This document shows, piece after piece, positions 20,355 through 27,161 of a stretch of DNA of 33,048 nt. A program made the translations under genes and the position numbers. The notes under the pieces were generated by a model that saw nothing but the letters and a program-made list of their open reading frames with translations, was not told the DNA's origin and made no database searches. Source of the stretch: Chiloscyllium plagiosum (taxonomy: Eukaryota); the NCBI RefSeq assembly GCF_004010195.1, contig NC_057756.1, positions 9,724,336 to 9,757,383 of the forward strand. The letters run 5' to 3'. Position 1 is the first letter of the stretch. The number at the start of each line of letters is the position of its first letter.

Positions 20355-21404
20355 CTACCATATCACGGAGTGCGAGGTGGAGGTCTCGGAGTCCGAGATG
20401 GCGGAGATGGTGCGCTTGAGTTTCCCAGACTGCCTTCCTGATGCCAACCTCCCAGTCGGGCAACCGACGTGGGCCAGGAGGCTGAGCACCTCTCGGCGGA
20501 ACTTGACCCCGATGAAGGCGTAGAGGAGGGGGTTCAGGCAGGAGTGGACCAGGCCCAGGCTCTGGGTGACCGTGCGGCTGATGTCCAGGACGTTGAGGCC
20601 GGAGCAGTCGGGCTGGACGGCGCCCAGGGACTGGAGGGTGTCGACGAAGAGCACGGCGTTGTAGGGCAGCCAGCAGACGACGAAGACCACCACCAGGGCA
20701 ACCACCACCTTGAGGGTCTTCTGCCTCTCGAAGACCGTGCTGCGCCACAGGCTCCTGAAGATCAGGCAGTAACAGTACAACATGGCAGAGGCGGGCAGGA
20801 AGAAGCCGAGACAATGGTGAACCAGGCGCAGTGCCAGCTTCCAGCCCTCGGCGCTCTCCACCCCAAAGGAGTAGGTACAGGCTTTCAGGGGTGAGTAGCT
20901 GGGCTGGTACACGTCGCGGAAGATGAGATCAACGGTGGCCAGCAGGAGGCAGAAGGACCAGACCACGATGCAGGTCAGGTGGACGTAGACGGGCTTGCGT
21001 TTACGGTACATGTGGATGGCGTGGACGATGGCCAGGTACCGGTCAAAGCTGATGCAGACCAGGAAGAGGATGCTGCTGTACAGGTTCAGGGCGAAGATCC
21101 CGCCCGTTATCTTACACATGGCAGCCCCGAACAACCAGCCGCCCACCGCCTCCACCATCCAGAAGGGCAGGGTGACCACCAGGATGAAATCGGCGACTGC
21201 CAAATGCAGGATGAAGGTGTCGGTGTGCGTCCTGGAGTACCGGTAACGCGCGATGACGAAGATGAGGAGGCCGTTACCGAACACTCCCAGCACAAAGACC
21301 AGTGAGTAGATGATGGGGATGAAGACGCTGTTGAAGTTGCCGATGGTAATGGGCTTGCAAGGCTGTGCAAATATGAAGCCACTTTCCAGATATTCATAAT
21401 CGAC
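20355..21404 (-). CDS. cxcr3: CXCR3-like chemokine receptor, main coding exon, copy A (349 aa; needs an upstream ATG exon)
   Basis: Acceptor ttttctaaaAG|GTC (phase 0, preceded by an in-frame TAA). Reads VDYEYLESGFIFAQPC.., TDTFILHLAVAD, CISFDRYLAIVHA, CWLPYN, HSCLNPLLYAFIGVKFR and a Ser-rich tail. These motifs closely match vertebrate CXCR3. Confidence 0.88.
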   Translation of the reverse strand, partial: VDYEYLESGFIFAQPCKPITIGNFNSVFIPIIYSLVFVLGVFGNGLLIFVIARYRYSRTHTDTFILHLAVADFILVVTLPFWMVEAVGGWLFGAAMCKITGGIFALNLYSSILFLVCISFDRYLAIVHAIHMYRKRKPVYVHLTCIVVWSFCLLLATVDLIFRDVYQPSYSPLKACTYSFGVESAEGWKLALRLVHHCLGFFLPASAMLYCYCLIFRSLWRSTVFERQKTLKVVVALVVVFVVCWLPYNAVLFVDTLQSLGAVQPDCSGLNVLDISRTVTQSLGLVHSCLNPLLYAFIGVKFRREVLSLLAHVGCPTGRLASGRQSGKLKRTISAISDSETSTSHSVIW

Positions 21405-21564
21405 CTTTTAGAAAATGGAAAGGCTCATTATGGGTGCATTTACCGGTTCGACCAGCCCACCCCCCGTCAGGCTCCAGTTATTACCAGGTTATATTGTCCA
21501 CTCTCCAACAGACAGCTGGACTCAAACCAGAGTCCGCAACAGAGTCTTTTGTTCAAAAAGCCAC

Positions 21565-22121
21565 ACAGTCTGTAGGCAGTCAGTCCATGTGGACCTTGTA
21601 CCAATTCCTTCTTTGGAAATAGAACCAGTCTGACTCGAGGCTGGCATACAGACAGACTCTAACCTCACACCTTTAAGGCTTATGCCCGAAACCTCCACCC
21701 TCCTGCTCCTCGGATGCTGCCTGACCTGCTGTGCTTTTCCTGCACCACTCTCTCGACTCTGATCTCCAGTATCTGCCGTCCTCACTCTCTCCAACTTTAA
21801 TGCATTGTCTGAGCTGAGGTCTCACCGTTTATTTCAATAAAACCTTAAATTATCTCAGACATGTGACTTGAAAGAGGTTCGGGGATTTCCACATTAATGA
21901 ACTAAAAGCTGCATCAGCATTCTAAGTGATTAAAGACTAAACAGTGATCTCGGTTTGTTCAATACATCACATCAGTTATACAACGCTGTGATCTTTTGCT
22001 ATAAATTCTGTGTCCCATGATCCTGCCCCACTAGCTGCCTGACAGAGAAGCAGCGCTCCGAAAGCTACTGCTTCCAAATAAACCTGTTGGACTGTAACCT
22101 GGTGCTGTATGATTTTTAACT
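21565..22121 (-). mobile_element. Dispersed repeat homologous to 8036-8508, with a nested Penelope-terminus fragment at ~21677-21793
   Basis: Reverse-complement match to 8036-8508. The nested piece reads GGCTTATGCCCGAAAC..GATGCTGCCTGACCTGCTG..CTCACTCTCTCC. Confidence 0.7.
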
Positions 22122-24171: not shown

Positions 24172-26476
24172 AGAGTAAAGCTCACTCTACACTGTCCTCC
24201 ATCAAACACTCTCAGGACGCAGATAGCACGTGGTTAGATATAGAGTAAAGCTCTCTCTACACTGTCCCCATCAAACCCTCCCAGGACAGGGACAGCATGG
24301 GGTTAGATACAGAGAAAAGGTGATTGAAATATTTCGGATTCTTAAGGGGCTGGACAGGGTCAATGCTGAGCGGGTATTACCCCCCTCCCCATGGGGAGAG
24401 GCTAGGACCCAGAGTGCCCCGCCTCAGAATAAAGGGGCACCAATTTCAGACAGAGATGGGGAGGGAGAGGTTGGTGGGTCTTTGGAATTCCTTACCAGAG
24501 AGAGCTGTGGGGGGTGGGGGCAGCGTCCTTGTGTATATTGAAGGCCGAGAGAGATTCCCAATCAATCGGGGAATCATTGGAAAGTGGTCATGAGGAACGT
24601 TGGATCAGCCACAATCCCGTGGAAGGGGAGAGCAGGCTCGATGGGCAGAATGGACTTCTCCTGATCCTATTTCCTGCGGCGTTGTGGGTCCCTCTACAAT
24701 TTCTCCCCATCGCTGTGCACAGTACGTCCCTCATTCCAACGCGCCCTCTGCTGTCCTGATAGTGAGGCCAACACGACGATGACATTACAAGGACTGCTTT
24801 ATTGCTACGTGCTTACAAATGAACATGCCACAGAAAGTAAAGACACTATATACACACAGTGGCATTCCGTGTGCAGTCCGGTCTCGCTGCCTGGTGAGGA
24901 ATGCCAGATCTCGGAACACTTACGCACACCAACAGCAGTGGAACTAGGAATAGAACTCACTTGAGAATAGTTTGCAACAGTCACTTAGAAACGTTGTGTA
25001 TCATTAATGCTTACAGGTTAGACGGAGGATCCGCACAGGGATACTGCTGTCCAGCTCAGAGGTTAAAGTCTTACAAAAGCTGCCAAGTGTCTGAACATCC
25101 AATCCATGAGGAGGCCATTCAGCCCCTCTTCCCCCCCAACCATCTTGCCTAGCTTGGCTCCATTCAGAGGCTCACTGATGATGGGACCCAGTATGGTGAC
25201 GAAACATCTGAAAGCGAACCTTCCTGCTCCGCAAGCACGCCAACGTCCAGGCTGGCTCATTTTGGAAAAGCAGCCCCTCCTCCAACTCTCCCTCGCCCCC
25301 TTCAGGGACTGGTATCCACCTGCTGTGAGGATGCCCACAGCCGAATAGCACCGTTACCACTAACCGTGGGAGGCTGTGAATGGGTGGCTGACCATGTGAG
25401 CCAGCCCACCGGGGTTTTGGGCACAGGGCACAGGATCTATTCTCTCACCAACCCTATAGGACTGTGCTTCTCTGCCTCTCCCTTCACCCTCAGCCCCCTG
25501 TCATCTCCTTATCCCTCTCTTTTTCTCTAATGAGAGAGCAGGCCTATGGTCCTCTGGGACACGGGGAAGACTTTTTGCAAAAGACATCCTAAGGAGGTGA
25601 CGAGGGGAGAGAAGGGGGGAGTCGCTTTCCCGTTAGCGGAACTCCGGGAAGAGTTTGAACGTTCTTGCGATTTTTGAGAAGATGTTTCGTCGCTCAGGGT
25701 TGTGGGTACAAGCTGGCAGTCTTACGCTCTGACTGGTGAGGTAACCGAGCGTGGAGACAGAATGGTCTGAGAACAAACATGCCAGCACAGCGGGCAACCT
25801 TACAACCTGCTCTCGGAGTCACTCTTGGAGATCATATTGGCACCAGGAGTGTGTGTGGGGGTGGAGGGGGGGACAGAGACGGGGCACATTCTGATGAAAC
25901 AAATTGTCTTCCCCCCCTCTTCCTGCCCCTCGCCCCCCTCTCCAAATTCACCCGGTGGTCCGCTCAATGGTTTGTCTGCTCAGTTTGGTGGAGAGGTTTT
26001 GTTGGCGATGGATTGGTGGGATGAGGTTGTGGTTTCCGTGAGGTGGGAAGGATTGGGGTGTTGGGGGAAGGGGGCGCGAAGGAGTCAGGGGGACGCGCCG
26101 CACTACCATATCACGGAGTGCGAGGTGGAGGTCTCGGAGTCCGAGATGGCGGAGATGGTGCGCTTGAGTTTCCCAGACTGCCTTCCTGATGCCAACCTCC
26201 CAGTCGGGCAACCGACGTGGGCCAGGAGGCTGAGCACCTCTCGGCGGAACTTGACCCCGATGAAGGCGTAGAGGAGGGGGTTCAGGCAGGAGTGGACCAG
26301 GCCCAGGCTCTGGGTGACCGTGCGGCTGATGTCCAGGACGTTGAGGCCGGAGCAGTCGGGCTGGACGGCGCCCAGGGACTGGAGGGTGTCGACGAAGAGC
26401 ACGGCGTTGTAGGGCAACCAGCAGACGATGAAGACCACCACCAGGGCAACCACCACCTTGAGGGTCTTCTGCCTCT
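24172..26476. repeat. Tandem segmental duplication, copy B
   Basis: Matches 18112-20728. Lacks the 312-bp segment at junction 25420/25421. Confidence 0.95.
24798..24803 (-). terminator. Candidate polyadenylation signal of CXCR3-like copy B
   Basis: Minus-strand AATAAA, homologous to 18738-18743. Confidence 0.5.
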
Positions 26477-27161
26477 CTAGCATGTGAGCACGGCACAGGG
26501 TCTTGAAGATCAGGCAGTAGCAGTACAACATGGCGGCCATTGGCGCAAAGAAGCCAATGATGTGATGGGTGGCGACGATGGTGAGCTTCCAGGCTGCAGC
26601 GCTGTCTGGGTGGAACATGTAGGTGCAGACACTGGTGTTGAGGTAGCTGGAGGTGTACACGTCACGGAAGATGAGATCAACGGTGGCCAGCAGGAGGCAG
26701 AAGGACCAGACCACGATGCAGGTCAGGTGGACGTAGACGGGCTTGCGTTTACGGTACATGTGGATGGCGTGGACGATGGCCAGGTACCGGTCAAAGCTGA
26801 TGCAGACCAGGAAGAGGATGCTGCTGTACAGGTTCAGGGCGAAGATGGCGCCGATCACCTTGCACATGGTGGTGCCAAAAGTCCAACCCATGACCGCCTC
26901 GACTGCCCAGAAAGGGAGGGTGAGGACCAGGAGGAGATCGGCTCCCGCCAAGTGGAGGATGAAGGTGTCTGTGAGAGTCCTTCTCGCAGACCTGAGGCGC
27001 CCGATGATGAGAATTACCATCATGTTGCCCAGAACGCCTAAGAGGAGGACGAGGGAGTACAGGATGGGGACAAAGACTCGCACAAAGTTTTCAACTACTA
27101 TGGGCCTGCACGGTTGGCTAACCATAAGGTCAGAGATATCAAAGTCACCATAGTAGTCTTC
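26103..27161 (-). CDS. cxcr3: CXCR3-like chemokine receptor, main coding exon, copy B (352 aa)
   Basis: Acceptor tttctgtttcttttttaaAG|GAA (phase 0). Reads EDYYGDFDISDLMVSQPC.., TDTFILHLAGAD, DRYLAIVHA, NPLLYAFIGVKFR. The 7TM frame is uninterrupted. Confidence 0.9.
   Translation of the reverse strand, partial: EDYYGDFDISDLMVSQPCRPIVVENFVRVFVPILYSLVLLLGVLGNMMVILIIGRLRSARRTLTDTFILHLAGADLLLVLTLPFWAVEAVMGWTFGTTMCKVIGAIFALNLYSSILFLVCISFDRYLAIVHAIHMYRKRKPVYVHLTCIVVWSFCLLLATVDLIFRDVYTSSYLNTSVCTYMFHPDSAAAWKLTIVATHHIIGFFAPMAAMLYCYCLIFKTLCRAHMLERQKTLKVVVALVVVFIVCWLPYNAVLFVDTLQSLGAVQPDCSGLNVLDISRTVTQSLGLVHSCLNPLLYAFIGVKFRREVLSLLAHVGCPTGRLASGRQSGKLKRTISAISDSETSTSHSVIW

What the first reader, a model, noticed from the sequence alone, without database searches (positions are those of the whole stretch)
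20355..27161. Two CXCR3-like receptors form a domain-selective mosaic: signalling parts homogenised, ligand-facing parts divergent
Seen: the copies are nucleotide-identical over 20917-21098 vs 26665-26846 (182 bp; TM3, DRY, ICL2, TM4). From ERQKTLK through TM6, TM7, the C-tail and the 3' flank they are almost identical (two differences seen in the coding part). Between these tracts, 20729-20916 (ECL2, TM5, start of ICL3) is strongly divergent: QPSYSPLKACTYSFGVESAEGW vs TSSYLNTSVCTYMFHPDSAAAW. The N-terminus, TM1, TM2 and ECL1 are also divergent. Established: the N-terminus and ECL2 are major chemokine-recognition surfaces, while DRY/ICL2 and the C-tail couple to G protein and arrestin. Inference: an old duplication undergoing recurrent gene conversion, with selection removing conversions that cover specificity regions, giving two sensors on one signalling chassis.
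Basis: partly seen in the sequence, partly recalled or inferred. Interest (0 to 1): 0.8.

Follow-up and report, generated by a model that had tools for sequence, protein, structure and literature searches.

The report
One shark gene, two chemokine receptors
In sharks, one chemokine-receptor gene splices a short first exon onto either of two complete receptor bodies whose middle stretches were likely kept alike by repeated gene conversion, while the identical tail that this assembly gives both copies is likely an assembly error.

Summary
(1) These are not two genes. One 14-codon first exon, found once in the genome on an unplaced contig, is spliced to either 7TM exon (B 26103-27161, A 20355-21404) in RNA-derived contigs; five other sharks' models share it. 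(2) Two tracts are real and converted: TM3-ICL2-TM4 (182 bp) and TM6-ECL3-TM7 (257 bp). Synonymous differences are 2 of 144 inside versus 38 of 82 outside; across 11 sharks the tracts group by lineage, the rest by copy. (3) The identical C-tail and 2.2-kb flank of A are likely B's sequence assembled into a gap: 3 of 7 contig runs and all 10 other complete shark pairs give A its own shorter tail. The split is therefore not 'signalling shared, ligand side divergent': ECL3 and 17 of 18 mapped pocket positions are shared; ICL1, ICL3 and the tail differ. The gene belongs to the fish cxcr3.2 lineage, not mammalian CXCR3. Region-limited conversion is known (TLR1/6, CCR2/5); two whole receptor bodies as alternative last exons was not found in the papers searched.

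The parts
26103..27161 (-). Last exon B, coding part: whole 7TM body and long C-tail of a cxcr3.2-type receptor; begins in phase 0 after an AG acceptor (27162-27163)
   Evidence: ORF; Pfam 7tm_1; acceptor; first exon joined at 27162 in runs X11 and X8
20473..21404 (-). Last exon A, the part supported by RNA-derived contigs: N-terminal stalk to helix 8; begins in phase 0 after an AG acceptor (21405-21406)
   Evidence: the same first exon joined at 21405 in runs X5 and X12
20917..21098 (-). Converted tract 1 in A (TM3, DRY, ICL2, TM4), 182 bp identical to 26665-26846
   Evidence: one 182-bp contig in 6 of 7 contig runs; lineage-grouping sites 204 vs 18
26665..26846 (-). Converted tract 1 in B
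   Evidence: as above
20473..20729 (-). Converted tract 2 in A (TM6, ECL3, TM7, start of helix 8), 257 bp, two differences from 26221-26477
   Evidence: one 257-bp contig in X1, X6, X11
26221..26477 (-). Converted tract 2 in B
   Evidence: as above
20730..20916 (-). Divergent island in A (ECL2, TM5, ICL3); partner 26478-26664 in B, which carries an N-glycosylation sequon in ECL2
   Evidence: 111 of 187 bases identical; 10 copy-diagnostic columns across 11 sharks
21099..21404 (-). Divergent 5' block in A (stalk, TM1, ICL1, TM2, ECL1); partner 26847-27161 in B
   Evidence: 193 of 306 bases identical; 14 copy-diagnostic columns
18112..20472 (-). Suspect block: a second rendering of B's C-tail, 3' UTR and flank (24172-26220) placed behind A up to an N gap; likely misassembled
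   Evidence: A-type tail branch at 20473/26221 in X1, X6, X11; A tail absent from G000
19361..19672 (-). 312-bp piece present only behind A in the assembly, but part of B's 3' UTR in RNA-derived contigs (missing from the window at 25420/25421)
   Evidence: loose ends at 25421 in X6, X8, X11 match its ends; present once in G000
17406..18111 (.). 706-N assembly gap at which the duplicated block ends; likely hides A's true tail and 3' UTR
   Evidence: content is inference
24798..26102 (-). 3' UTR of B with an AATAAA at 24798-24803 (candidate poly(A) signal; use not shown)
   Evidence: covered by contigs
22122..24319 (.). 70-bp satellite array (31 copies) between B's 3' end and A's acceptor

Best explanation
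This is one shark gene of the cxcr3.2 lineage in which a single 14-codon first exon is spliced to either of two tandem last exons, each encoding a whole seven-helix receptor, and the two exons have likely exchanged TM3-TM4 and TM6-TM7 by repeated gene conversion since before the shark orders split. Shown: both splice junctions; the two identical tracts; lineage-wise grouping of the tracts and copy-wise grouping of the rest; a separate A-type tail in RNA-derived contigs. Inferred: splicing to the nearer exon B with cleavage at its poly(A) site competes with skipping on to exon A; both products couple to G protein (DRY, CWxP, NPxxY intact); they share the deep pocket and so likely bind the same family of CXCL11-like chemokines, but differ in affinity or preference (stalk, TM1 top, ECL1, ECL2 with a glycan site in B only) and in desensitisation and trafficking (ICL1, ICL3; B tail 59 residues from NPLLY with a cysteine, A tail 46). 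The window's identical tail and flank behind A are likely B's sequence assembled into the gap.
For: Same 28 bases of exon 1 joined to A at 21405 (X5, X12) and to B at 27162 (X11, X8). Exon 1 has ATG, 14 codons and a GT donor, occurs once in G000 (C91448:9379-9420) and is not between A and B (no N from 18112 to the window's end). Five of the 10 other complete shark pairs are database isoforms with 14-17 shared first residues. Tracts: synonymous differences 2 of 144 vs 38 of 82; quartet sites by lineage/by copy 204/18 (TM3-TM4), 97/15 (TM6), 95/6 (ECL3), 64/2 (TM7) against 0/322 (TM1), 0/190 (ECL2), 15/109 (ICL3), 2/123 (tail); all 11 A copies are one clade on divergent columns (100/99) and that clade is rejected on tract columns (p-AU 4.6e-5); 15 of 17 lineage-specific residues shared by A and B lie in the tracts, and 0 of 27 copy-diagnostic columns do. 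Tail: branch in X1, X6, X11 translates like the A tails of P0128, P0129, P0127. Pocket: 17 of 18 positions the same (positions from PMC13089336 and PMC11026165).
Against: Exon 1 is on an unplaced contig, so its place upstream of B is not shown in this assembly; a second, collapsed copy inside the satellite between B and A is not excluded. The A and B junctions were seen in different runs (only contig lengths imply both in one library); X1's A contig runs on into the intron instead and X2's stops at 21403. Four of 7 contig runs (X2, X5, X8, X12) show no A-tail branch. Five of 10 other pairs are annotated with unshared first residues or a truncated start. In lamniform and catshark pairs the tracts still group by copy within the family, so conversion is uneven. 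Quartet counts reuse lineages and are not independent; other species were compared as proteins only. No ligand, signalling or expression data; the pocket map rests on alignment to a squirrel CXCR3 with human numbering and on the other CXCR3 lineage.
Confidence: 0.75

Rival explanations
1. One reading: two separate genes, ligand-facing parts divergent, whole signalling side including the C-tail homogenised under selection.
For: The assembled letters show it; N-terminus and ECL2 are divergent and contact chemokine in human CXCR3; 4 of 7 contig runs show no separate A tail.
Against: Shared exon 1; separate A tail in 3 runs of 3 studies and in all 10 other complete pairs plus a partial whale shark model; ICL1, ICL3 and tail divergent, ECL3 and pocket shared.
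Confidence: 0.04
2. The shared first exon and the two tracts hold, but the B-type tail and flank behind A are a real allele in the sequenced animal: a recent long conversion or unequal crossover still segregating in the species.
For: No A-tail branch in X2, X5, X8, X12; in X8 the two copies look similar in depth, so graph cleaning is a less obvious excuse; the two renderings differ at 6 small sites and a 312-bp piece; the A tail is absent from G000.
Against: The block ends exactly at an N gap, in a satellite; where they cover these sites, the contig runs carry the 'A-flank' letters and the 312-bp piece in one UTR; contigs drop variants and short branches (they also drop 20669 and 20681); B-tail contig depth matches B alone in X6 (105.5 vs 115.1; shared 204.9-213.6) and X11 (61.7 vs 60.8), though depth is a poor measure.
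Confidence: 0.15
3. The mosaic is passive: conversion fixes only where identity is already high, and the islands persist because mismatches block conversion, with no selection for distinct function; exon A may be a minor, largely redundant isoform.
For: Tracts coincide with the most conserved helices; TM2 is identical between copies in 4 of 11 sharks yet diverged in the window, so boundaries move; pocket positions are the same; no A-type found in rays.
Against: Islands are conserved within each copy across orders (ECL2 0.73 and 0.75 within, 0.41 between; TM1 0.84 and 0.79 vs 0.49), 24 diagnostic columns outside the tail, A open in all 11 sharks and spliced in RNA. This is compatible with the best explanation's anatomy and disputes only the selective step.
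Confidence: 0.25
4. Each copy has its own, near-identical first exon and promoter, collapsed to one in this assembly; the database isoform labels are mapping artefacts.
For: Exon 1 is unplaced; a 2.2-kb satellite between the copies could be collapsed.
Against: One match only, with unique flanks; none in the gap-free stretch between the copies; five chromosome-scale assemblies of other sharks are annotated as one gene.
Confidence: 0.08

Closest known systems
Fish Cxcr3.2 (CXCR3b type, lost in mammals by the scheme of PMC4052464; the a/b label is my inference)
   Same: A and B fall in one clade with fish 3-2, lungfish and newt receptors (100/99); two-exon layout with a short first exon; DRY intact. 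Zebrafish Cxcr3.2 signals to Cxcl11aa in macrophages (PMC7028096, passages).
   Different: Fish paralogues are separate tandem genes; here two receptor bodies share one first exon. The A/B split is within sharks and rays and is not the CXCR3a/b split; G000 holds two further receptors of the other lineage (L003, L004).
Mammalian TLR1/TLR6 concerted evolution (PMC2077338, abstract)
   Same: Tandem immune-receptor paralogues with the same region converted independently in many lineages while other domains diverge.
   Different: Separate genes; one long C-terminal tract covering the signalling domain. Here two internal tracts, and the intracellular tail, ICL1 and ICL3 escape.
CCR2/CCR5 and CXCR1/CXCR2 gene conversion (PMC8877049, PMC4052464, PMC3568907, passages; Shields 2000 and Vazquez-Salat 2007 seen only as cited there)
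   Same: Chemokine-receptor pairs homogenised over helices and loops with the N-terminus spared.
   Different: Separate genes with tracts that vary by lineage; not reported for CXCR3 or for sharks in the papers searched.
Drosophila Gr39a (PMC2204066, abstract); MASP-1/3 and calcitonin/CGRP alternative last exons (recalled, no call)
   Same: One locus makes several proteins by choosing among large duplicated exons.
   Different: Gr39a has variable first exons with shared last exons and is not a GPCR of this class; here the shared part is 14 residues and the whole receptor is the alternative last exon.
Human CXCR3-A/B/alt splice forms and zebrafish Cxcr3.2/Cxcr3.3 (PMC9252580, PMC7028096, passages)
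   Same: Two CXCR3 forms with a shared pocket that may tune one chemokine axis.
   Different: Human forms share one 7TM exon; zebrafish Cxcr3.3 has lost DRY and is a proposed scavenger, whereas both shark forms keep DRY.

Membership tests
Class A chemokine receptor, CXCR3 group | 7tm_1 domain with DRY, TxP, CWxP, NPxxY and the stalk/ECL3 cysteines; CXCR3 as best solved-structure match | tested here: met
   Pfam E 1e-68 and 5e-65; best PDB match human CXCR3, E 1e-87; motifs in alignment
Mammalian-type CXCR3 (CXCR3a) orthologue | Groups with mammalian CXCR3 | tested here: not met
   Falls with fish 3-2 (100/99); mammalian CXCR3 groups with pike 3.1 and G000 L003/L004 (87/95) (38 rows, LG+G4)
cxcr3.2 / CXCR3b lineage | Groups with fish cxcr3.2 | tested here: met
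cxcr3.2 / CXCR3b lineage | Conserved synteny, linkage to CXCR3a | not tested
   Neighbouring genes were not annotated; L003 is on C34 and L004 on unplaced C101912, the window on C47
cxcr3.2 / CXCR3b lineage | Activation by CXCL11-like chemokines | not testable with these tools
   needs a cell assay
Region-limited concerted evolution | Synonymous identity inside tracts, divergence outside | tested here: met
   2 of 144 vs 38 of 82
Region-limited concerted evolution | Tracts group by lineage, other parts by copy, across species | tested here: met
   (proteins only; weak in lamniforms and catsharks)
Region-limited concerted evolution | Tracts are not an assembly artefact | tested here: met
   met for the 182-bp and 257-bp tracts
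Region-limited concerted evolution | C-tail and 3' flank are part of a real converted tract | tested here: not met
   separate A tail in 3 of 7 runs and in other sharks; a rare real allele is not excluded
Region-limited concerted evolution | Selection removes conversions that cover the islands | tested here: inconclusive
   islands conserved within each copy, but no DNA of other species for dN/dS
Gene with mutually exclusive duplicated last exons | One first exon spliced to either last exon | tested here: met
Gene with mutually exclusive duplicated last exons | First exon single and physically upstream of both | tested here: inconclusive
   single in G000 and not between the copies, but unplaced
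Atypical (scavenger) chemokine receptor | Altered DRY motif | tested here: not met
   DRY kept in A and B of all 11 sharks

The most novel reading that the evidence does not exclude
Sharks run a splice switch that chooses between two entire chemokine receptors from one promoter, kept since before the shark orders split: conversion keeps the pocket floor and G-protein core the same while stalk, ECL2, ICL3 and tail stay distinct, so a cell can change chemokine preference and desensitisation by 3'-end choice alone; in this species an A-body/B-tail allele may also be segregating.
Probability: 0.35. Interest if true: 0.75.

Novelty: new variant of a known kind. Interest (0 to 1): 0.5.

Why it matters
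It gives a vertebrate GPCR in which duplication of the coding exon, not of the gene, made two receptors under one promoter, and a natural chimera series for asking which surfaces of a CXCR3-type receptor set ligand preference and which set arrestin behaviour. It also corrects annotation: the public model for copy A carries B's tail, exon 1 sits on an unplaced contig, and counts of shark CXCR3 genes must separate this lineage from the two mammalian-type genes. The conversion pattern itself is a known phenomenon.

Tried and rejected
No RNA holder was listed as such by the run search; the contig runs are labelled 'DNA?' or '?', and I read them as RNA-derived because they hold exon-exon junctions, are 57-798 million letters against a 3.56-Gb genome, and three have no depth at 27206-27307. 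Raw single-cell run X22 laid 0 reads (6% read): no test. Searches of G000 for the A-type tail by protein and by DNA pattern, and of 113 kb around the window and contig C91448, found nothing; absence from an incomplete assembly is weak. C91448 could not be placed: its only close matches to the region are satellite. No A-type protein of rays or chimaeras came up; annotation gaps could explain it. Rejected: chance or protein constraint alone (synonymous test); a recent duplication (copy-wise clades across five orders); collapse of the 182-bp tract; A/B as the CXCR3a/b pair; A as a DRY-less decoy. GC3 is higher in the tracts (141 of 148 vs 127 of 150 in A; 140 vs 117 in B): fits GC-biased conversion but also codon bias, not used as evidence. 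Earlier-findings look-ups returned nothing. No structure or complex was predicted.
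Full report
Observation. The window holds two minus-strand reading frames for rhodopsin-family receptors, A (20355-21404) and B (26103-27161), best matched by human CXCR3 among solved structures. Among codons with the same residue (Met and Trp left out), 2 of 144 differ synonymously in the tracts and 38 of 82 outside (p 8e-18), so protein constraint or chance does not explain the tracts. 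The identity also runs 2.2 kb past the stop to 18112, the edge of a 706-N gap, with a 312-bp piece (19361-19672) only behind A. That made an assembly error a serious possibility.

What is real and what is not. Eight public runs of the same species label were laid (of 24 listed): four on A, four on B. One, raw single-cell reads, laid nothing. In 6 of the 7 contig runs the 182-bp tract is a single 182-bp contig flanked by copy-specific contigs, so it is real in animals from four studies. The second tract is a 257-bp contig (20473-20729/26221-26477) in X1, X6 and X11, and in these three runs, from three studies, a different sequence leaves at 20473/26221. It translates like the own tail of copy A in Hemiscyllium and in two Chiloscyllium punctatum assemblies (P0128, P0129, P0127) and is absent from G000. 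All 10 other complete shark pairs give A a tail 13 residues shorter than B's. The three runs laid on B carry the 312-bp piece and the 'A-flank' letters at 25493, 25567 and 25614 in B's own 3' UTR. I read 18112-20472 as B's tail and UTR assembled into the gap behind A. Against this, X2, X5, X8 and X12 show no branch; contigs drop variants and short branches, but a real, segregating A-body/B-tail allele is not excluded (about 0.15).

One gene, not two. Both frames start at a phase-0 AG acceptor. The same 28 bases are joined to A at 21405 (X5, X12) and to B at 27162 (X11, X8; X6's contig is likewise 28 bases longer than its laid part, its row not shown). They belong to an exon of 14 codons with ATG and a GT donor, found once in G000 on unplaced contig C91448 and not in the gap-free stretch between the copies. 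The contigs end one base into exon 2's shared first letter, which implies that both junctions fork from the same exon within a library (inference from k-mer overlap). Database models agree: in Heptranchias, Heterodontus, Mustelus, Hemiscyllium and C. punctatum the A and B proteins are named isoforms and share their first 14-17 residues; the basking shark A model begins with a homologous peptide; the remaining pairs have unshared or truncated starts. In X1 the A contig runs into the intron instead, and exon 1's position upstream of B is not shown in this assembly.

Conversion across sharks. Eleven complete pairs from five orders were aligned as proteins; the partial whale shark A was left out of counts and trees. 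Over 45 cross-order species pairs (not independent; 38 for the tail, window left out), sites grouping by lineage versus by copy were 204/18 for TM3-ICL2-TM4, 97/15 TM6, 95/6 ECL3, 64/2 TM7, 56/17 helix 8, against 0/128 stalk, 0/322 TM1, 23/53 ICL1, 0/1 TM2, 4/115 ECL1, 0/190 ECL2, 32/64 TM5, 15/109 ICL3, 2/123 tail. On divergent columns all 11 A copies form a clade (100/99); on tract columns that clade is rejected (p-AU 4.6e-5) and the three hemiscylliid pairs group together (100/99) (29 rows, LG+G4). Fifteen of 17 lineage-specific residues shared by both copies lie in the tracts; none of 27 copy-diagnostic columns does. Conversion is uneven: lamniform and catshark copies still pair by copy within their families. 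Rays gave only one, B-like protein in two searches; whether A was lost there or arose later is unresolved.

Anatomy and mechanism. The boundary is not inside versus outside. Mapping 18 human CXCR3 chemokine-contact positions (PMC13089336 and PMC11026165, passages; through squirrel CXCR3 P0046, which has all 18 human residues) gives the same residue in A and B at 17; only 1.31 differs. ECL3 is homogenised. What differs is the rim (stalk, TM1 top, ECL1, ECL2, with an N-glycosylation sequon in all 11 B and no A) and the inner regulatory surfaces (ICL1, ICL3, tail; B 59 residues from NPLLY with one cysteine and 10-12 Ser/Thr, A 46 residues with 5-11). Both keep DRY. I therefore commit to this: exon 1 is spliced either to B, ending at B's poly(A) signal (AATAAA at 24798), or past it to A; B has the more pyrimidine-rich acceptor; the two receptors likely bind the same family of CXCL11-like chemokines through one pocket, with different affinity or preference and different desensitisation. 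The splice junctions and sequence partition are shown; the 3'-end competition, ligands and signalling differences are inferred. That selection maintains the islands is suggested by their conservation within each copy (ECL2 0.73 and 0.75 within, 0.41 between) but not shown; mismatch-blocked conversion could keep them passively.

Comparison with what is known. In a 38-row tree the pair sits with fish cxcr3.2, lungfish and newt receptors (100/99), apart from mammalian CXCR3, whose lineage holds two other G000 genes (L003, L004). By the scheme of PMC4052464 (passages) this would be the CXCR3b type lost in mammals; I did not test that label with trout sequences or synteny. Region-limited conversion is established for TLR1/TLR6 (PMC2077338, abstract), CCR2/CCR5 (PMC8877049, passages) and CXCR1/2 (PMC4052464, PMC3568907, passages). 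Large alternative receptor exons are known at Drosophila Gr39a (PMC2204066, abstract). Zebrafish Cxcr3.2/3.3 share a pocket but differ by loss of DRY (PMC7028096, passages). Reviews mention only a skate CXCR3 homologue or none (PMC9252580, PMC8472726, PMC6795676, passages). Ten searches found no paper on this shark locus, its shared exon or its conversion; Zou et al. 2015, Shields 2000 and Vazquez-Salat 2007 were seen only as citations, subscription journals are largely missing, and no supplements were read. The isoform structure is already implicit in database models of five sharks.

Verdict. Observation partly confirmed, interpretation partly supported. New variant of a known kind; interest 0.5.

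Noticed in passing
G000:C91448:9379-9420 (L027, L028): The gene's first exon lies on an unplaced 9.9-kb contig with four gaps; the public models made from the window's copies begin with other, shorter starts (P0003, P0121).
   Followed up: yes
window 25420-25614: B's 3' UTR in the assembly lacks 312 bp and differs at three sites from all three contig runs laid there; both renderings also lack three C at 25130 that those runs have.
   Followed up: partly
window 26738 (tract 1): Run X8 has a single 182-bp contig with a C>T change; it could be a variant shared by both copies (ongoing conversion) or a dropped bubble.
   Followed up: no
window 21405-21600: In run X1 the A contig continues into the intron at A-like depth: unspliced RNA or an alternative start for A.
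   Followed up: no
L003 (G000:C34) and L004 (G000:C101912): Two further CXCR3-like genes of the mammalian-type lineage; L003 has an NRY motif in place of DRY and groups with ray proteins P0031 and P0039.
   Followed up: partly
window 1971-5746: Broken LTR retrotransposon with SCAN, integrase and RNase H pieces, integrase before RNase H.
   Followed up: partly
window 14541-17405, 27452-27879, 8665-8826; 22122-24319, 32681-33048, 18112-18259: Two satellite families (53 bp and 70 bp) flank the exons and border most N gaps.
   Followed up: partly
window 7926-7998 and 10473-10547: Two tRNA-Thr(TGT)-like genes in opposite orientation; may be repeat-derived.
   Followed up: no
G000:C7:107.5-107.8 Mb (L006-L009): At least five tandem CXCR1/2-like genes, a candidate for the same conversion analysis.
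   Followed up: no
P0012, P0013, P0016, P0137: Rays gave one B-like protein each and no A-type in two searches.
   Followed up: partly
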